A stretch of 39,424 bases of DNA from a virus (IMGVR_UViG_3300048587_000399:1-39424), one strand, 5' to 3'. Positions 27,767 through 35,965 are shown, counted from the stretch's first letter. Numbers and translations: made by a program. The notes: generated by a model not told the origin, from the sequence alone.

Positions 27767-29446
27767 TCACACGACCAGCAGTTCGTGTTCCTCATAGGCC
27801 GACACCGGGATCGGGTCGGGGTTCGACGCCAGCAGCCCGACCGCGCCGATGCACGCCATGAGCGGAGCCGCGTCCTTCGGCGACGACACCCGGTCGATCA
27901 CCAGCGCCTCGCCGAGCTTCTTCGTCGCGGCCGTCGCAGCAGCCAGGTCGATCAGTGGTTGCGGACCATGCGTCATCGTCACAGCCGGCAGCTCCGGATG
28001 CACCGCGAGCGCGAGCCGGTCGTAGAACACCCCGTACCACGCCGCGAGCAGCGAGCCCTCCCACGGCGTCACCGTCAGCCCCGCCTCCGTGAACTCCTTC
28101 ACGAGCGACGACACCGGAGCGCCGCGGGTCTGCATCGTCAGGTACTCGACCGGCACCAGCCGGTCCGGGGACTTGAGCCACGGGACGAGCCAGTCCGTCC
28201 CGGCGCGTTTCGCCACCAGCTCGAACCGGATGCGCCCCTCCTCGTCGTAGTACGCGAGCGCCACATACGACATCGTGCGGTCGTGGGACACGTCCACGCA
28301 GTACGCCACGATCCGGGTCGTGTCGCGCGCGACGCCGCGCCGCTTCCGGTCCGCGACCGTTTGCACCGTCGCCTCCCACGCGCCCGCAGGGAACGGACCC
28401 TGCGCCATGTTGACCACGGTCTGGCAGAGCACCTCCGTGCGGAACACGGGCTCCGGGTCCGTCGCGGCCGCCGACGCGATAGTCGACTCCATGATTGAGT
28501 GCCCGAGCGACGGGTTCGCCTGCGCCCACCCGTCCCGGTCCCACACCGACGCCGTGGGAGGAGCCGACCACTCGAACAGCCCGAGCGAGTTCAGCGCCTC
28601 GACCAGCTCCTCCGGCAGCTCGTCCTCGTCGCCGGCGAACAGGTCGAGCCCGTCGCCGATCCCCTCCTTGCCGTCCGGCCACCCGAGCCCCTGGTGCCCG
28701 AGCGCCCGCAGATAGCGCAGCACCACCGACGTGAAGTCGCCGGCGTTCGACGCACCCCAGATTTGCGCGTGCGCGCGCGCCATTGTCGTTTTCGTCACCG
28801 ACGACCACGCGTCCCAGACCTGGTGCTCCCGCAGCTCATCCAGCAGCACGAGGTCGCCCGACAGCCCGCGAGCACCGCGGCGACTCGCCGCCTTCACCTT
28901 GTACCGGCGACGCGCCCGCAGCTCTAGCGAGAACTTCCCGTTGGTGCGGTTCACCTTCTCGACCTCATCGGCGAGCTCCGGGATGCCCTCCACCATGTCC
29001 ACGGCGTCGGCCCACTGCTCCTCGGCGATGTCGAGCGTCTGCGCCGTGCCGATCACGAGCGGAGCGTCATCCACGAACATTCGCCACAGCGTCAGCACCT
29101 GCATCAGCGTCGACTTGCCGTTCTGGCGCGCGACGAGCAGCACGATGATCCGGAACCGGAACGTGCCGTCCTCGTTCAGTTCGAGCGCATGGATCAGCAG
29201 CCACTTCTGCCACGGGAACAGCTCCACGCCCATGACGTCCTCGGCGAACCGGATCGCCTCGAACCCGCGCGTTGTGGCTTCCTCGACCACGACACCGAAC
29301 GCGTCCCGCACATCGTCCCGCAGCGGCCGCAGCGGGGGAGTCCACAGCCGCGGCTCCTCGCACCCGATCCGCTTCTTCGCGCGCGGAGCCGGACGCCTAC
29401 GCCGACTTCCGGTCGCGCTGCGCGCGGAGGCTTGCGAGCTTGCCAC
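27767..29446 (-). CDS. Terminase large subunit
   Basis: 559 aa. It has PRLWTPPLRPL, FPWQKWLL and VARQNGKST (Walker A). GTG 29446 is preceded by GAAGGAGGAAA. Confidence 0.9.
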   Translation of the reverse strand: MASSQASARSATGSRRRRPAPRAKKRIGCEEPRLWTPPLRPLRDDVRDAFGVVVEEATTRGFEAIRFAEDVMGVELFPWQKWLLIHALELNEDGTFRFRIIVLLVARQNGKSTLMQVLTLWRMFVDDAPLVIGTAQTLDIAEEQWADAVDMVEGIPELADEVEKVNRTNGKFSLELRARRRYKVKAASRRGARGLSGDLVLLDELREHQVWDAWSSVTKTTMARAHAQIWGASNAGDFTSVVLRYLRALGHQGLGWPDGKEGIGDGLDLFAGDEDELPEELVEALNSLGLFEWSAPPTASVWDRDGWAQANPSLGHSIMESTIASAAATDPEPVFRTEVLCQTVVNMAQGPFPAGAWEATVQTVADRKRRGVARDTTRIVAYCVDVSHDRTMSYVALAYYDEEGRIRFELVAKRAGTDWLVPWLKSPDRLVPVEYLTMQTRGAPVSSLVKEFTEAGLTVTPWEGSLLAAWYGVFYDRLALAVHPELPAVTMTHGPQPLIDLAAATAATKKLGEALVIDRVSSPKDAAPLMACIGAVGLLASNPDPIPVSAYEEHELLVV

Positions 29447-30011
29447 CCGTTTCCTCCTTCGCCGACTTCACCGACGCGCGCGCGGCCGGGGTCGCACCCA
29501 GCTCGCGCAGCACCGTCATCAGATGCGGCATCAGGTACATCGCCTTCGTCTCCGCAGTCGGATCCATTGTTCCCGACGCCGCGTCGATCCTCTCCGCCAG
29601 CCGATGACCGGCCGCGACGAGCGCGCCGTCCGCCGGCTTGAGCACCAGCGCCGCGACCGCCGCCTCGTAGGCCTCGACCATCACCGTCGACTTCGCCGTG
29701 CCGACCAGCCGAATCCGGTCCTCCTGCAGCCGCAGCACCCGGTCAATCGCCGACGCCTCGCCCTTCGCCGCCCGAGCCCACGTCCCCGCGATCATCCGGT
29801 CGATCCGGTCGAGCGCGAGCAGCCGAGTCTCCTCCGGGTCCGTCATCACGCCCACGGCGTCGAGCGCCGCCCGGATGTCGACCGCCGCCTCCTCCGCCGA
29901 CTTGAACCCCAGCTCCGACACGATCCGCTCAAGCGGGATGCCCGCCCGCCGGAGCTCGAGCCCGCGTTGTGCGCGAGCCGCCCGTTCGTCGGCGGTCAGC
30001 GTCACCCTCAC
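29397..30011 (-). CDS. Terminase small subunit
   Basis: This is the last 204 codons of track ORF 29397-31016. GTG 30011 overlaps the methyltransferase stop (GTGA). It has an N-terminal HTH-like segment (LRRAGIPLERIVSELGF) and lies upstream of terL. Confidence 0.65.
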   Translation of the reverse strand: MRVTLTADERAARAQRGLELRRAGIPLERIVSELGFKSAEEAAVDIRAALDAVGVMTDPEETRLLALDRIDRMIAGTWARAAKGEASAIDRVLRLQEDRIRLVGTAKSTVMVEAYEAAVAALVLKPADGALVAAGHRLAERIDAASGTMDPTAETKAMYLMPHLMTVLRELGATPAARASVKSAKEETGGKLASLRAQRDRKSA

Positions 30012-32406
30012 GATTCGACCTCGACGGCCGCGAGCGCACCCGGAGCGACATCGCCGACGCGGAGCGCCGCACGCTTCCTGTCGCCCTTCACGTACACGAG
30101 CACCTCCTGGTGGACACGAGTCAGCGTACGCGAGCCCGTGAACGCGCGCGCCGAGCGCATGGCACTGTTCCCCCACCGGGGTCAGCAGCACGGCGTCGTT
30201 GACGAGCCTGAGCCCCGCAGCCTCCGCAGCCTCGCTCATGCACCTCCGCATGTCCATCACATACCCTCGGCGGTCGCGGACCGAGCCGACCACGAACACG
30301 GCGTAGGAGTCCGGCCGCAGCACCCGCGCGACCTCGGCGATGTTCACCCGCATCTGCGCGTCGAATTCCGCCTGCGACAGGTTCGACAGGTCGCGGGGGT
30401 CGTCGGAGTACACCTCAAGGTCGTACGGGGGACAGCCGAACGCGAGGTCGTAGCTCGCCGCGTCCATCTCCGCGAGCCGTTCCGTCGACTCGCCCTCCAC
30501 CCACTCCGGCAGCACGCGCAGCGACACGGACGGGCGGCCGACGAGCGAGCCGCGGAGCCCCACGACCCACAGCAGGTCGCCCTCACGCAGGAACGGGAGC
30601 GCCTTCCCCTCGTAGATCGGGTCGACCACCAGCTCGCCCAGCCGGTTGTCGGCGACCGCCTCGTGGTAGTCGACGCCGGCCTCCACCAGCTCGCACATCT
30701 CGCGCCAGCCCTCCGGCGCGTACCGGTCCAGCCTCTCGGTCGGGTCCGCGCCGACCACGACGCCGAGCACCGGCACGGAGCGTCCGGCGGCCGCGAGCCC
30801 GTGGAGGATGCCGGCGAGAGACATCCCTGATCCGACTGGCACCACGATCCGCTCAACGGCCGCCGGCACGTTCTTGACCTGGCGCGCCGTCCACGACACC
30901 GCCAGCTCCGTCTCCATCCCGAACGGAACCTCCACCGCATCCGGGTTTGACTCCGCCGACCGGCGAGCCCGAGCGATGATGACCGAGTTCCCGCCCGTAG
31001 GCATGCTGCACCACATCGGCGCCCGCCTCCTGCGCCGCGAGCAGCTCCGGCGTCAGCCCGCCGCTCGGCACATGCACCTCCGCGCGCATCCCGAGCGCAG
31101 CCGCGACCTCGGCGACGATATTCACTTGCGGCGACTGCCGCGAGCCCGCCGTCACGAGCACCCGCTTGCCGGCCTTCTTCGCCGCCTCGGCGAGCGCCCA
31201 GCACGACCGCACCTTGCCGCCGCGAGACTTCCCCACGCCGTACAGGTCGTCGCGCTTCACCAGCACCCCGCCGTGCTCCTCCACCGGCGTCAGCGACCGC
31301 GGCGACTTCACCAGCGGCACCTCCGGAGCCCCGGCGACCTCGACCTCCACAGCCCCGTCCTCGTCATGCGCGCCCTCGCCCGGCCGGGGAGGAGCGGAGA
31401 ACGCGAGGTCGAACGACTCATCGGCGAGCGCAGCGAGCCCGCCGGCCGCCACCCACTCCGGCACCGTCCCGCCCGAGCCGGCGACACCCGCGCGCACGGC
31501 CGCGTCGATCACGCGCAACTGCTCCCGGTTCGCCTCGATCTGCTCCGGCCGCAGCTCCACGCCCACATACTCGCGGCCGAGCACCGCGGCGACCACGCCA
31601 CGCACCGAGCCGCCAGCCCACGGGTCGATGATCCGCGCACCCGGAGCGGAGAACCACGAGTACAGCAGCTCCGTCAGCACCGGGTCGAACTCCGACGTGC
31701 CATTGCCGCCCGCGCGCAGCTCGCCCGCATGGTCGCGCAGCACCTCCGCGTCCGTCAGCTTGTGGCCCGCCGCAGCCTCCGCCGCGTTCTTCACGTCGTA
31801 CCAGTTCAGGAACCGCGTCTGCGGCGAGTCGAACACAAGCTGCTCATCCCGCCCATCCGTGGACGACAGCCCGAGCGCAGACCACACCCGCTTACGCGCC
31901 TGCCAGTCCCCACCGCGCGCCGACAGCACCGACAGCGGAGCAGCCCCGAACCGATCCACCAGCCGGTCCAGCCCCGCGCCCGCCGGCTCCGCGAGCAGCG
32001 CCCGCAGGTCCGCGTCCGAATAGCCCGTCCCCACCAGGTCATCCAGACCGCCCAGCAGCTCCGCCAGCAGATCATCGTCATACCCGCCGAGGTCCGCCGT
32101 CCGGTTATCGGCCAGCACGATCCGCGCAGCCACCGCATCGTCCACATCGACCGTCGCCACCTCCACCCGCGACCACCCGAGCGACACCGCCGCATCCAGC
32201 GTGTGATTCCCCGCCAGCACCTCGAACGGCCGACCCGTCAGCGTGCCCTCGTTCACCACGATGGGCTTGTACTGCCCCGTCGCCGCCAGCGACTCAGCAA
32301 TCGCCGACACATCCCCGCGCCGCGGATTCTTGTGGAACCGCGACAACTTCGACACCGACAGCGCACGCACGCGCAACACAGACACACCAGCAGCAGACTC
32401 AGACAT
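30008..32406 (-). CDS. ParB-like domain / DNA methyltransferase with a nested PLP-dependent (ACC-deaminase/D-Cys-desulfhydrase-like) domain; frame broken twice (+1, +1)
   Basis: Frame a (track ORF 30853-32406): KNPRRGDV and AGNHTL (ParB), IIDPWAGGSVRG (motif I), DLAFSAPP, then TPVEE..VLVKRDDL..SRGGKVRS..LVTAGSRQSPQ. Frame b (track ORF 29397-31016): IVVPVGSGMSLAGI and VVDPIYEGKA, then DLAFGCPPY..VLRPDSYAVFVVG. Frame c (own translation): NSAMRSARAF..TRVHQEVLVYVKGD.., with stop at 30010-30008. Confidence 0.7.
30438..30511 (-). repeat. Downstream copy of the duplicated methyltransferase segment (LPEWVEGES..SYDLAF)
   Basis: Exact blocks gaacgcgaggtcg (30438-30450) and ccacccactccggca (30497-30511) recur at 31399-31411 and 31449-31463. 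Confidence 0.85.
31399..31463 (-). repeat. Upstream copy of the duplicated methyltransferase segment (VPEWVAAGG..SFDLAF)
   Basis: See 30438-30511. The copies are 961 and 952 nt apart. Confidence 0.85.
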
Positions 32407-32434: not shown

Positions 32435-32471
32435 CCCTCCCCGCGTGATGGGGGAGCCCCACCGGGGAGGG
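32435..32471 (-). promoter_or_regulatory. Hairpin (8-bp stem ccctcccc/ggggaggg, 21-nt loop) 29 nt upstream of the ParB-MTase start
   Basis: Inverted repeat read directly. Confidence 0.35.
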
Positions 32472-32495
32472 ACGATCAGCTCCCGGTGGTTGCTT

Positions 32496-32610
32496 GGGGG
32501 GTGGGTGGGGTGGTGATTGGGTGGCCCTTCCCCTGTGGGTTAGTTCGTTGAGGGGTGGGTGCCGGGGTGGGGTTCGGTGTTGGGGTTGGGTGGGGTGGGG
32601 TCCCCTGGGG
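32496..32610 (+). other. Cluster of G-quadruplex-forming tracts on the plus (template) strand
   Basis: 32496-32521: G6-T-G3-T-G4-N8-G3. 32552-32572: G4-T-G3-TGCC-G4-T-G4. 32582-32600: G4-TT-G3-T-G4-T-G4. A further G4 run lies at 32607-32610. Confidence 0.7.
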
Positions 32611-32743
32611 TGTCGGGTCCGGTGGTGGTTCGGTAGGTTGCCCGTCCCACGGTTGGACCACCGGACCCGAGTGTGATGTCGACGGGTGTTCCGTCGAGGG
32701 GTGGTGGGGTGATGAGGTGGCGGTTGAGGTCGCGGTCGTTCAT
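32540..32743 (-). CDS. Possible small Pro/Thr-rich protein (67 aa)
   Basis: This is the C-terminal part of track ORF 32540-33061. ATG 32743 is preceded by AAGGAGGAGG. The product is low-complexity (PDTPGDPTPPNPNTEPHPGTHP), so coding status is uncertain. Confidence 0.35.
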   Translation of the reverse strand: MNDRDLNRHLITPPPLDGTPVDITLGSGGPTVGRATYRTTTGPDTPGDPTPPNPNTEPHPGTHPSTN

Positions 32744-33400: not shown

Positions 33401-33691
33401 TCACCAGTCCTCGGACACCTCGCCGAGCTCGGGCGACGCGTCACCGGCGCCCTTGTTGCGGTTGCATCGGTGGTGCGACGCCTGCAGGTTCGAGGGTTCG
33501 AGCGCGAGGTCGGGTCGCCGTCGCCGGCTGATCTTGTGGTCCGCCTCGAACGCATCCGGGGTGTTCGCCGGCGCGTCATAGTCGATGGTCCGTTGCCCGC
33601 AGATCCCGCACGGAGCGTTCCCGGCCTTGCAGCCCGCGCGGAACGACACGATCAGGTCGCGGTACTCCTTCGTCCTCACGACGTCGACCAC
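33401..33691 (-). CDS. HNH endonuclease (terminase-associated type)
   Basis: 96 aa. It has CGICG..ADHKISRRRRPDL..NLQASHHRCNRNKG (CxxC plus the H-N-H core). It sits in the HNH - (cos) - terS - terL arrangement known from HK97-like cos phages. Confidence 0.85.
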   Translation of the reverse strand: MVDVVRTKEYRDLIVSFRAGCKAGNAPCGICGQRTIDYDAPANTPDAFEADHKISRRRRPDLALEPSNLQASHHRCNRNKGAGDASPELGEVSEDW

Positions 33692-34897: not shown

Positions 34898-35507
34898 GCC
34901 ACACTCCCTCCTCGTACACCAGTCCGCATCGCAGACACGACACCCTGAACACCTCGCCGGCCGGTGACGTCGCGTGATGCACGACCACCGACCGCTCCCC
35001 GCACGTCGTGCAGAGCCGAGCGCGCCCAGCTCGCGGAGTCAGCGCGTCCAGCCCGTACTGCTGACGCAGCCGCCGTACGAACCCGAACAGTTGGTCCTCC
35101 GACTCCTGCAGCACCTCGAACCCGGCGATCAGCCACGAGCGGCCGATCAGCCACCCCACGATGTCGCCGGCAGCATGCGCGGCCGCGACCGAGCCCATCC
35201 GAGCCCGCAGCCCTTGCGCCTCCCCGACCGTCCACGTTGCCACCGACGAGCGGAGCACGGCCGGCGAGGAGCCGCCCACCAGCTCCACGACTTCGGTCGC
35301 ATACAGCACGAGCAGCGACCACAGCAGGTCCGCGTCGTCCATCGGACCCACCCGGAACGGGAGTGGGATACCTCGTGAGCCCGACACGCGGCCGCCTTGC
35401 GGAGCCGCGGAGAACGGGACCACCGACGCCCGCACTTGCAGCAGCAGCCCCGGCACCGCGTCCAGGTGCCACTGGTAGCGCCGCGTCCACGAGTCCATCC
35501 CGCTCAT
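34818..35507 (-). CDS. Hypothetical protein (229 aa) with a C-terminal CTTCG..CLRCG zinc-ribbon-like pair
   Basis: Track ORF 34818-35567. ATG 35507 overlaps the upstream stop (ATGA). Its 3' end overlaps the next gene by 80 nt. Confidence 0.55.
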   Translation of the reverse strand: MSGMDSWTRRYQWHLDAVPGLLLQVRASVVPFSAAPQGGRVSGSRGIPLPFRVGPMDDADLLWSLLVLYATEVVELVGGSSPAVLRSSVATWTVGEAQGLRARMGSVAAAHAAGDIVGWLIGRSWLIAGFEVLQESEDQLFGFVRRLRQQYGLDALTPRAGRARLCTTCGERSVVVHHATSPAGEVFRVSCLRCGLVYEEGVWRGADADVSAGGVAGAALRADDQAVEA

Positions 35508-35965
35508 GAGTTCGCCACCCGCAGCAGCACGTCCGCGTGGCACACCGCGTCCAGCGCGCACCAGCACCCGAGCGTCCAGCCGCGCAGCCGGGACCGGACC
35601 TCAGACACCCCGAACTGCAGCCGCCCGTCGAGCAGCGCAGCCTCGAACATCGCCACCGCGGCCTCGCGCGTGATGTTCCCGCCGTTCTCGGCCGTGCCCA
35701 CCACGAACGGATTGCCGTAGCGGTGCGGCCGCGCGACAGACACAGCGCCGACCGGCATCCGCCAGCCCGCAGCGCGCGACAGTCGGATGCGTGACGGAGC
35801 CGGCCACGGGATCACCCGCTCCGCGCAGTCGCACGAACCCCACCGGCACGGGACCGGAGCGGAATGCATTGTCGACCCCTCGGGGACATGCAGCATCCGA
35901 CCGTGTCCGCACGCCACGCACGAACTCACCGCCGAGTTGTCGAACGCGAGCGGAACCCGCAGCAC
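35504..35965 (-). CDS. DUF4326-domain protein
   Basis: 153 aa. It has IRLSRAAGWRMPVGAVSVARPHRYGNPF and LGCWCALDAVCHADVLL, the typical DUF4326 landmarks. Confidence 0.7.
   Translation of the reverse strand: MLRVPLAFDNSAVSSCVACGHGRMLHVPEGSTMHSAPVPCRWGSCDCAERVIPWPAPSRIRLSRAAGWRMPVGAVSVARPHRYGNPFVVGTAENGGNITREAAVAMFEAALLDGRLQFGVSEVRSRLRGWTLGCWCALDAVCHADVLLRVANS

What the first reader, a model, noticed from the sequence alone, without database searches (positions are those of the whole stretch)
30008..32406. PLP-dependent (ACC-deaminase / D-cysteine-desulfhydrase-like) domain nested inside a ParB-DNA methyltransferase gene beside the terminase
Seen in the sequence: after removing two single-nt frame breaks, the conceptual product is about 798 aa. 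Its domain order is as follows. First comes a ParB/Srx-like domain (KNPRRGDV, AGNHTL). Next is the methyltransferase N-lobe with motif I (FDPVLTELLYSWFS..IIDPWAGGSVRG), then a degenerate motif IV remnant (DLAFSAPP) and an acidic linker. About 245 aa follow that carry the landmarks of fold-type-II PLP enzymes of the ACC-deaminase/D-Cys-desulfhydrase family: TPVEE..VLVKRDDL, SRGGKVRS with a candidate Schiff-base Lys, LVTAGSRQSPQ, IVVPVGSGMSLAGI and VVDPIYEGKA. After that come an intact motif IV (DLAFGCPPY) and the methyltransferase C-lobe (VLRPDSYAVFVVG, HQEVLVYVKGD). Established knowledge: ParB-methyltransferase fusions are common next to actinophage terminases, but I know of none with a PLP enzyme spliced into the catalytic domain. 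Inference, which is speculative: a SAM-binding fold joined in cis to a PLP enzyme acting on small amino acids points to chemistry on the amino-acid moiety of SAM. That could mean SAM destruction as anti-restriction, or a non-methyl DNA modification, rather than plain methylation.
Basis: partly seen in the sequence, partly recalled or inferred. Interest (0 to 1): 0.85.

Follow-up and report, generated by a model that had tools for sequence, protein, structure and literature searches.

The report
Phage DNA methylase carrying a PLP enzyme
The window holds a recently broken copy of a widespread but unstudied phage gene that joins a DNA-targeting ParB domain, a DNA methyltransferase-type domain and a vitamin-B6 (PLP) enzyme related to phage enzymes that trim amino acids attached to DNA bases, so it may make a DNA modification other than plain methylation.

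Summary
On the minus strand, 32406..30008, removing one extra G at 30990 and one at 30170 gives a 798-aa product: ParB-like domain, methyltransferase (MTase) motif I/II, a disordered partial duplicate of motif IV, a PLP domain, then MTase motif IV onward.

It is not unique. More than 100 intact single-ORF relatives exist, including a 799-aa ORF in a 97.5%-identical phage and genes in cultured phages Pam4 and vB_EliS-R6L. I found no paper that studies them.

The MTase is a circular permutant of the beta-class N6A/N4C enzymes, with an unusual CPPY motif IV. The PLP domain sits at the permutation seam.

The PLP domain has the ACC-deaminase/D-Cys-desulfhydrase fold but falls far below those families' cut-offs. 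Its best match is the phage family of ViI gp226, a proven PLP decarboxylase acting on amino acids attached to DNA bases.

MTase and PLP recur nested, in tandem, or as adjacent genes, with or without ParB. That argues for functional coupling.

Best mechanism (inferred, about 0.4): the MTase-fold domain transfers the aminocarboxypropyl part of SAM to a base, and the PLP domain decarboxylates it. Main rival: ordinary methylation plus PLP chemistry on a small molecule.

The window copy carries two frameshifts and a codon loss in motif IV, most likely real and recent.

The parts
30008..32406 (-). Whole ParB-MTase-PLP gene. As assembled it is broken into three frames. The corrected product is 798 aa.
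31978..32376 (-). ParB/Srx-like N-terminal domain (aa 11-143). Box II reads LAGNHT in place of the canonical GERR.
   Evidence: PHROG ParB families 1e-50. The family profile hits Noc/ParB/Spo0J structures at 4e-9. G66 N67 H68 are invariant.
31714..31962 (-). Conserved bridge region (aa 149-231), RFGAPPxSVL..R.G.W..RK..W..LG..S..GR. It is present in all family members that carry ParB.
   Evidence: invariant columns
31492..31713 (-). MTase first half (aa 232-305): FDPVLTEL helix, motif I DPWAGGSVRG (31609-31626) and motif II YVGVELRPEQ.
   Evidence: Pfam PF01555 positions 178-218. Aligns to residues 222-268 of 2zie.
31324..31491 (-). Partial duplicate of beta3/motif IV (PEWV...DLAFSAPP) plus an acidic linker (aa 306-361). 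Predicted disordered.
   Evidence: pLDDT 36-54. The duplicate is shared by the close clade, including PLP-less P0018 and P0033, and is absent from distant members.
30531..31323 (-). PLP domain (aa 362-625). Landmarks: Schiff-base Lys398 (31213-31215), SPQ loop (31126-31134), GSG phosphate loop (30825-30833), YEGK (30603-30614).
30990..30990 (-). Frame break 1: one extra G inside the PLP domain.
30050..30530 (-). MTase second half (aa 626-785): beta3, motif IV GCPPY (30423-30434), DLEVYSDD, and motifs V-VIII.
   Evidence: PHROG 498. Aligns to residues 25-100 of 2zie. AlphaFold pLDDT above 90.
30420..30423 (-). Site of a 3-nt (TAC) deletion relative to the intact relative. It removes the residue after CPPY.
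30170..30170 (-). Frame break 2: one extra G in a G run in the MTase C-terminal part.
29397..30011 (-). Small terminase subunit. Its GTG start overlaps the gene's TGA stop (GTGA).

Best explanation
This gene belongs to a widespread family of phage DNA-modification enzymes built from three modules.

1. A ParB-like domain that brings the enzyme to DNA or activates it.
2. A circularly permuted beta-class exocyclic-amine MTase domain, with motif I before motif IV and motif IV reading CPPY.
3. A PLP enzyme domain, inserted in the loop where the permutation joined the old C- and N-termini.

Shown: the architecture, the fold assignments, conservation of the catalytic residues of both enzymes, and the recurrent coupling of the MTase and PLP modules.

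Inferred mechanism: the MTase-fold domain uses SAM to alkylate an exocyclic amine of A or C in phage DNA. For a PLP enzyme to act on that product, the group must carry an alpha-amino acid. So the group transferred would be the 3-amino-3-carboxypropyl part of SAM rather than the methyl. The PLP domain is a relative of ViI gp226 and M6 gp52. It would form an external aldimine with this tethered amino acid and decarboxylate it. The result would be an aminopropyl (primary amine) side chain in the major groove, which protects the DNA from host nucleases.

In the window itself the gene is disrupted by two +1 frameshifts and a codon loss in motif IV. These are most likely real, recent inactivating mutations.

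The confidence given (0.4) is for the inferred mechanism. The architecture, fold assignments and coupling of the modules are near certain (about 0.95).
For: Architecture:
- Pfam, PHROG and PDB hits for all three modules.
- AlphaFold model with mean pLDDT 87.5. Only the linker and duplicate segment are disordered.
- Foldseek top hits are D-Cys desulfhydrase and the ACC-deaminase homologue 1j0a, TM 0.64-0.68.

Permutation seam: the family profile matches 2zie in two pieces in reversed order, and the PLP domain lies between them.

The fusion is real: intact ORFs in P0121 (97.5%-identical phage), P0001-P0120, Pam4 gp70 and R6L gp1.

Both enzymes are under selection:
- Across 104 sequences, KRDD, the Schiff-base Lys, S-P-Q, GSG and Y-E-x-K are invariant or nearly so. 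So are motif I and CPPY.
- Between the window and L089, synonymous to nonsynonymous codon differences are 50:9, like the terminase and portal genes.

Coupling. The same two modules occur in these arrangements:
- nested;
- nested with ParB as a separate gene;
- MTase followed by PLP in one ORF;
- adjacent genes in either order.
Three of three sampled stand-alone PLP genes lie 0-2 kb from a ParB-less MTase of the same permuted type. No third gene family is shared.

Link to DNA-adduct chemistry:
- ViI gp226 defines phrog_3650 (2.5e-241), which is the insert's best PHROG hit (1e-37). M6 gp52 defines phrog_7093 (insert 4e-12).
- Both are experimentally shown PLP decarboxylases of amino acids attached to bases in DNA (PMC8989533).
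- The insert's Lys aligns with their K92 and K36. The insert shares SPQ with gp226 where ACC deaminase and D-Cys desulfhydrase have SNH.
- Other relatives sit beside other amino-acid-installing enzymes: aGPT-Pplase2 in phage Montesquieu, and LPG_synthase_C-like genes in L099.

The window has no thymidylate synthase, kinase or aGPT-Pplase among the ORFs scanned. That leaves the MTase as the only candidate partner.

ParB-like proteins are known activators of phage DNA-modifying enzymes (PMC13229309).

Lesions are real rather than errors: against L089, 8 of 10 single-base indels are intergenic (about 9% of the sequence). The only frame-breaking coding indels are the two in this gene.
Against: - No experiment exists on any member, and no modified base is known for Pam4, R6L or Vincenzo.
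- The MTase is an ordinary relative of N6A/N4C methylases. No case of one transferring aminocarboxypropyl to DNA is known to me.
- About 60% of family members have no PLP partner in the flanks. No MTase residue distinguishes PLP-linked from PLP-free members. So either the whole family makes a non-methyl adduct, or the PLP step is unrelated to the MTase product.
- Pairwise, the insert is about as distant from ViI gp226 (25% identity, E 2e-10) as from cellular D-Cys desulfhydrase.
- Close stand-alone PLP homologues also occur in alphaproteobacterial chromosomes with no DNA-modification neighbours.
Confidence: 0.4

Rival explanations
1. The MTase domain is an ordinary N6-adenine or N4-cytosine methyltransferase. 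The PLP domain acts on a small molecule linked to SAM turnover. One example is breaking down the inhibitory product S-adenosylhomocysteine, or another SAM-derived amino acid, near the enzyme.
For: - The MTase is homologous to classic beta-class DNA methylases.
- PLP-free and PLP-linked MTases are indistinguishable in sequence. PLP therefore looks like an optional accessory.
- A PLP-less relative has a phage SAM synthetase gene directly upstream, which shows investment in SAM supply.
- Close stand-alone PLP homologues exist in cellular contexts.
Against: - No PLP enzyme of this fold is known to me to cleave SAH or SAM.
- The nearest characterised relatives act on amino acids attached to DNA.
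- Nesting inside a DNA-bound enzyme, and repeated fusion, fit action on the same macromolecule more simply.
Confidence: 0.28
2. The order is reversed. The PLP domain decarboxylates free SAM to decarboxylated SAM. The MTase-fold domain then transfers the aminopropyl group to a DNA base, as spermidine synthases do with amines.
For: - SAM is itself an amino acid tethered to a nucleoside, like the substrates of ViI gp226 and M6 gp52.
- Aminopropyl transferases have the class I MTase fold (established knowledge).
- The end product is the same as in the best explanation.
Against: - PLP-free family members have the same cofactor-binding motifs. They would lack a source of the special cofactor.
- Known SAM decarboxylases are pyruvoyl enzymes, not PLP enzymes (PMC10407285 abstract).
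Confidence: 0.08
3. The PLP domain itself attaches an amino acid to a base by beta-replacement, as cysteine-synthase-like enzymes make willardiine. Alternatively it destroys SAM as an anti-restriction measure. In either case the MTase acts independently.
For: - Fold-type II enzymes are the classic beta-replacement catalysts (established knowledge).
Against: - The domain is closest to the decarboxylase clade and to the ACC-deaminase/D-Cys-desulfhydrase branch, not to the cysteine synthase or TrpB branch.
- Destroying SAM would starve the fused SAM-dependent enzyme.
- A related phage adds a SAM synthetase rather than removing SAM.
Confidence: 0.08
4. The nested arrangement is an artefact of assembly or a decayed pseudogene with no coherent product.
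For: The window copy has two frameshifts and a codon deletion.
Against: - Intact ORFs with identical domain order occur in an independent assembly of a 97.5%-identical phage and in over 100 other clusters.
- The substitution pattern shows purifying selection, 50 synonymous to 9 nonsynonymous.
- The AlphaFold model is confident.
Confidence: 0.03

Closest known systems
ViI gp226 and M6 gp52, PLP-dependent decarboxylases of thymidine hypermodification (Lee et al. 2021, PMC8989533)
   Same: - Same PLP fold family, modelled on 1j0a.
- The Schiff-base lysine aligns with theirs.
- gp226 shares the SPQ loop and YEGK.
- The insert's best phage-family match is gp226's family, phrog_3650.
- They are phage enzymes that act on amino acids attached to bases in DNA.
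   Different: - Those are free-standing proteins in a pathway that starts from 5-hydroxymethyluracil, with a kinase and an aGPT-Pplase amino-acid transferase.
- Here the partner is a SAM-dependent MTase-fold domain, and none of those genes was found among the window ORFs scanned.
- Identity is only about 25%.
ParB-N6/N4 DNA methyltransferase fusions of phages and prophages (bioRxiv 10.1101/2025.10.10.680097)
   Same: - Same ParB plus PF01555 architecture.
- Same position next to the terminase.
- PLP-less members are up to 69% identical to this protein in their shared regions.
   Different: - This one carries a 265-aa PLP domain inside the MTase.
- The family's motif IV is CPPY rather than D/N/SPPY.
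- Its motif order is permuted relative to classic beta-class enzymes.
ACC deaminase / D-cysteine desulfhydrase (TIGR01274, TIGR01275; PDB 1tzk, 4d8t, 1j0a)
   Same: Same fold, with KRDD, the lysine, the GSG phosphate loop and the DPxY(E/T)GK motif.
   Different: - Scores are 30-40 bits against cut-offs of 289-610.
- The substrate-carboxylate loop reads SPQ, not SN(H/Q).
- The domain is embedded in a DNA enzyme.
TYW2 and aminopropyl transferases (MTase-fold enzymes that transfer the aminocarboxypropyl or aminopropyl part of SAM or decarboxylated SAM)
   Same: They are a precedent, recalled from established knowledge, that a class I MTase fold can transfer a group other than methyl from the sulfonium.
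   Different: No detectable sequence relationship was tested or found here. Their substrates are tRNA or polyamines, not DNA.

Membership tests
ParB/Srx N-terminal domain (PF02195) | Profile match to the ParB N-terminal fold | tested here: met
   PHROG ParB families 1e-50 to 1e-27. The family profile hits Noc, ParB and Spo0J structures at 4e-9. The Pfam score of 20.6 bits is below the 26.3 cut-off for this single sequence.
ParB/Srx N-terminal domain (PF02195) | Canonical CTP-binding box II (GERRxR) with the arginine needed for nucleotide binding | tested here: not met
   The window has LAGNHTLDAA, and G-N-H is invariant in the family. The role of the arginine comes from bioRxiv 10.1101/2025.10.10.680097.
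Beta-class N6A/N4C DNA methyltransferases (PF01555) | Profile match above the curated cut-off, and motif I (DPFxGxG) | tested here: met
   30.9 bits against a cut-off of 26.7. DPWAGGSVRG is nearly invariant. PDB hits include 2zie, CcrM, N4CMT, DpnA, MboIIA and PvuII.
Beta-class N6A/N4C DNA methyltransferases (PF01555) | Motif IV (D/N/S)PP(Y/F) | tested here: not met
   Motif IV is CPPY in essentially all members examined. One distant ParB-less neighbour has SPPY. In the window the residue after CPPY is deleted.
Beta-class N6A/N4C DNA methyltransferases (PF01555) | Linear order: motif IV first, motif I last | tested here: not met
   The order is I then IV. The two halves align to 2zie residues 222-268 and 25-100 respectively.
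Beta-class N6A/N4C DNA methyltransferases (PF01555) | Methyl transfer from SAM to an exocyclic amine of DNA | not testable with these tools
   Needs enzyme assay or nucleoside mass spectrometry.
ACC deaminase / D-cysteine desulfhydrase family (TIGR01274/TIGR01275) | Fold-type II PLP fold with the Schiff-base lysine | tested here: met
   Foldseek 4d9e E 1e-11, 1j0a TM 0.68. The lysine in GGKVR is invariant in 104 sequences.
ACC deaminase / D-cysteine desulfhydrase family (TIGR01274/TIGR01275) | Score above the curated family cut-off | tested here: not met
   37.5 bits against 289 (TIGR01275). 30.6 against 392 (TIGR01274). 24.6-28.9 against 429-610 for the D-Cys desulfhydrase equivalogs.
ACC deaminase / D-cysteine desulfhydrase family (TIGR01274/TIGR01275) | Substrate loop Q-S-N-(H/Q) | tested here: not met
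   The window has QSPQ where 7ysk has QSNH and 1j0a has HSNH. S-P-Q is invariant or nearly so.
Phage PLP decarboxylases of amino acids attached to DNA bases (ViI gp226 / M6 gp52) | Profile membership in the same phage protein family | tested here: met
   Insert against phrog_3650 gives 1e-37, and gp226 itself 2.5e-241. Insert against phrog_7093 gives 4e-12, and M6 gp52 2e-159.
Phage PLP decarboxylases of amino acids attached to DNA bases (ViI gp226 / M6 gp52) | Catalytic lysine equivalent to K92 (gp226) and K36 (gp52) | tested here: met
   Alignment A2. The residue numbers come from PMC8989533.
Phage PLP decarboxylases of amino acids attached to DNA bases (ViI gp226 / M6 gp52) | Genomic partnership with 5-hmdU DNA kinase, aGPT-Pplase and dUMP hydroxymethylase | tested here: not met
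   None found among the window ORFs scanned, nor as a shared neighbour in 28 PLP-positive loci. The relative MONT_41 does have them.
Phage PLP decarboxylases of amino acids attached to DNA bases (ViI gp226 / M6 gp52) | Decarboxylation of an amino acid tethered to a base in DNA | not testable with these tools
   Needs biochemistry.

The most novel reading that the evidence does not exclude
The permuted CPPY MTase and its PLP partner form a two-step pathway for a DNA base hypermodification that is not yet described. The pathway would transfer the 3-amino-3-carboxypropyl group of SAM to adenine N6 or cytosine N4 in phage DNA. PLP-dependent decarboxylation to an aminopropyl side chain would follow. 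It would be made after replication from a universal metabolite, without any special nucleotide pool. If so, the PLP-free members of this very large prophage family may leave the amino-acid adduct on DNA rather than a methyl group.
Probability: 0.35. Interest if true: 0.9.

Novelty: new variant of a known kind. Interest (0 to 1): 0.72.

Why it matters
Known amine-bearing phage DNA hypermodifications start from special pyrimidines or deazapurines and need several enzymes. A methyltransferase-fold enzyme coupled to a PLP enzyme would be a new, minimal route to such a modification, and possibly the first on adenine N6 or cytosine N4 derived from the amino-acid part of SAM.

The family is large. 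It occurs in hundreds of phage and prophage contigs across several phyla and in at least four cultured phages. A positive result would therefore re-annotate many genes now called 'DNA methylase' or 'PLP-dependent enzyme'. It would also affect restriction evasion, modification-dependent defence and sequencing-based modification calling.

Even if the MTase only methylates, the recurrent fusion points to an unknown link between DNA methylation and PLP chemistry.

The hypothesis can be tested directly with existing phages and simple mass spectrometry.

Tried and rejected
- A related contig (L005, P0008) was tried as a reference for frameshifts in other window genes. Only the first three genes are similar, so it was uninformative.
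- A GC3 frame-plot heuristic for other frameshifts was too noisy to use. It was replaced by direct alignment to the near-identical phage L089.
- Exact-pattern scans for the frameshift site, with or without the extra base, found nothing in the metagenome or viral collections. Independent copies of the window contig could not be checked that way. The look-up of P0004 by exact product also failed.
- I searched for a third gene shared by PLP-positive loci. Only terminase- and portal-like clusters recur.
- I searched for MTase residues that separate PLP-linked from PLP-free members. None was found.
- Ten literature searches found no study of a ParB-MTase-PLP protein, of aminocarboxypropyl or aminopropyl DNA bases in phages, or of a CPPY motif.
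- Programmed frameshifting was rejected, because the intact relative has the same sequence minus one G at each site.
- Membership in the thymidine hypermodification cluster was rejected, because the partner genes are missing.
- An intein or mobile-gene insertion was considered and dropped. The insert is a conserved enzyme domain with no endonuclease or splicing motifs noted, and it also occurs as a normal adjacent gene.
Full report
**1. What is in the sequence**

The gene runs on the minus strand from the ATG at 32406 to the TGA at 30010-30008. That stop overlaps the GTG start of the small terminase subunit.

As assembled, the gene is split over three frames. A tblastn of a relative changes frame at 30991-30995 and at 30168-30172. 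Alignment to a 97.5%-identical phage contig (L089) shows that each break is one extra G in a G run, at 30990 and 30170.

Removing the two bases gives 798 aa. At both junctions this restores exactly what relatives have, YGRNSVI and PVGNSAMR.

- a ParB-like domain;
- the MTase motif I/II region;
- a PALP domain (E 7e-16, above Pfam's cut-off);
- the MTase motif IV-VIII region.

**2. The fusion is real, and it is not unique**

- An exact-cluster look-up found P0121, an intact 799-aa ORF on an independent 39,140-bp assembly of nearly the same phage.
- A protein search found 389 relatives. The best 120 are mostly single ORFs of 720-800 aa that carry PF02195, PF01555 and PF00291 together. They include prophage genes of Streptomyces and Micromonospora.
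- Two cultured phages have the nested form. One is Pseudanabaena phage Pam4 gp70.
- The other is Erythrobacter phage vB_EliS-R6L gp1, whose PLP part is more divergent and M6-like. The R6L paper describes gp1 as a single-domain CcrM-like methylase (PMC5463345).
- Ten literature searches found no study of this architecture.

**3. Anatomy**

AlphaFold2, run with a 104-sequence alignment, gives mean pLDDT 87.5. The only long low-confidence stretch is residues 309-361. That is the 'remnant' DLAFSAPP plus the acidic linker.

The remnant is part of a roughly 35-residue duplicate of the beta3/motif IV segment.
- The whole close clade shares it.
- The PLP-less relatives P0018 and P0033 also carry both copies, with nothing between them.
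- Distant members, including Pam4, lack the first copy.

This pattern suggests that the PLP module is gained and lost by recombination.

A profile of PLP-less members matches the Thermus methylase 2zie in two pieces in reversed order. Motif I aligns to residues 222-268 and motif IV to residues 25-100. The family is therefore a circular permutant of beta-class N6A/N4C MTases. The PLP domain sits in the loop that joined the old termini, which is a naturally permissive site.

Motif IV is CPPY followed by xDLExYSDD in essentially all members examined.

**4. The PLP domain**

Sequence and structure place it in the ACC-deaminase/D-Cys-desulfhydrase branch of fold-type II. However, curated family scores are 30-40 bits against cut-offs of 289-610. 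The substrate loop reads SPQ rather than SN(H/Q).

Its best match in phage families is phrog_3650 (1e-37), with phrog_7093 second (4e-12). These two families are defined by ViI gp226 (2.5e-241) and M6 gp52 (2e-159) respectively.

Lee et al. showed that both proteins are PLP-dependent decarboxylases of amino acids attached to bases in polymeric DNA. They modelled gp226 on 1j0a (PMC8989533).

The insert's lysine aligns with their K92 and K36. The SPQ and YEGK motifs are shared with gp226.

Pairwise identity to gp226 is only 25%, so this is family-level kinship, not orthology.

**5. Coupling of the two enzymes**

Local HMMs were run over 80 viral and 80 genomic loci. They show these arrangements of the MTase and PLP modules:
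- nested;
- nested with ParB as a separate gene;
- MTase followed by PLP in one ORF (L016, L097);
- PLP just upstream of the MTase (L021, L105);
- PLP just downstream of the MTase (Vincenzo gp1/gp2, L102, L107, L109 and others).

A search with the insert alone found over 700 relatives. The 120 best, all stand-alone proteins of about 240-440 aa, are 48-61% identical to it. All three sit in phage contigs within 0-2 kb of a ParB-less MTase of the same permuted type.

The conserved core is therefore MTase plus PLP, and ParB is optional. No third gene is shared.

Other members of the PLP clade sit beside other amino-acid-installing enzymes:
- aGPT-Pplase2, in a thymidine hypermodification cluster in phage Montesquieu;
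- two LPG_synthase_C-like genes in L099.

Two stand-alone copies in alphaproteobacterial chromosomes have uninformative neighbours.

**6. Mechanism**

Shown: both catalytic centres are conserved under purifying selection, and the two modules are functionally linked.

Inferred: a PLP enzyme needs a primary amine, normally of an alpha-amino acid. The only amino acid an MTase-fold enzyme can place on DNA is the aminocarboxypropyl part of SAM. Decarboxylation by a gp226-like domain would then leave an aminopropyl amine in the major groove. That would resemble the amine-bearing side chains of known hypermodified thymidines.

I put this at about 0.4.

The main objection is that about 60% of family members lack PLP, and no MTase residue tracks PLP presence. 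Either the whole family makes the unusual adduct, or the PLP step is separate.

The chief rival (about 0.28) is ordinary methylation with PLP chemistry on SAH, SAM or a related small molecule. It is consistent with a phage SAM synthetase gene next to a PLP-less relative.

Lesser rivals are SAM decarboxylation followed by aminopropyl transfer, PLP-catalysed amino-acid addition, and SAM destruction.

ParB-like proteins have recently been shown to activate phage DNA-modifying dioxygenases (PMC13229309). This fits a targeting or activating role for the ParB domain. Here, however, box II reads GNHT rather than GERR.

**7. State of the window copy**

Against L089, 8 of 10 single-base indels fall in the roughly 9% of sequence that is intergenic. 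Other coding indels are multiples of three. The only frame-breaking coding indels are the two in this gene.

The gene also lost the codon after CPPY, a spacing no relative varies.

That distribution is what selection-filtered real variation looks like, not random homopolymer error. I therefore judge the lesions real at about 70%.

The 50:9 ratio of synonymous to nonsynonymous differences matches the terminase and portal genes. Inactivation is therefore recent.

**8. Verdict**

The 'ACC deaminase' label holds only at the level of fold.

Novelty: a new variant of known kinds (ParB-MTase fusions; PLP trimming of DNA-borne amino acids), with a fair chance of a new DNA modification behind it.

Noticed in passing
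L087:8589-9752 (Microbacterium caowuchunii prophage): A phage-borne S-adenosylmethionine synthetase gene lies directly upstream of the PLP-less ParB-MTase P0033 and the terminase genes.
   Followed up: no
L099:3456-8743: A stand-alone PLP homologue (HMM E 4e-93) sits in a phage-like region. Two LPG_synthase_C-like ORFs (aminoacyl-tRNA-dependent transferase type) precede it. A YAcAr/SLOG protein, a metallophosphoesterase and a RegA-like regulator follow it. A YAcAr protein and a thymidine kinase also follow the PLP gene in L171.
   Followed up: partly
L090:3482-5904 (Erythrobacter phage vB_EliS_R6L gp1): The published 'CcrM-like single-domain' methylase of 830 aa actually holds ParB, the split MTase and a divergent PLP domain at the same seam. 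Its motifs, SNYDAKAW and GGTKRR, resemble those of M6 gp52.
   Followed up: partly
window 32440-32660: The intergenic region upstream of the gene is very rich in G runs on the plus strand (GGGGTGGG-type repeats). Against the near-identical phage it carries three single-base length differences in such runs. It lies at the junction between the right-arm genes and the packaging genes.
   Followed up: no
window about 23265: A 24-nt in-frame deletion relative to L089, in a small gene just downstream of the capsid gene.
   Followed up: no
window 33401-33691 (minus strand): An HNH endonuclease gene lies shortly upstream of the ParB-MTase-PLP and terminase genes. This is the usual HNH-terminase arrangement of cos-type phages. 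The same layout is seen in L087, L088 and L089.
   Followed up: no
window 35504-35965 (minus strand): A DUF4326 gene shows a cluster of compensating indels (+2, +1, -3) and the highest nonsynonymous share (13 against 18 synonymous) in the comparison with L089.
   Followed up: no
whole window: The window equals a complete public contig of 39,424 bp, 70% G+C. All confident genes are on the minus strand. Genes found include DnaB-like helicase, glutaredoxin, RecE/RecT-like proteins and DUF932. The host is probably Microbacterium or a relative, judging from terminase DNA matches and the closest prophage homologues.
   Followed up: partly
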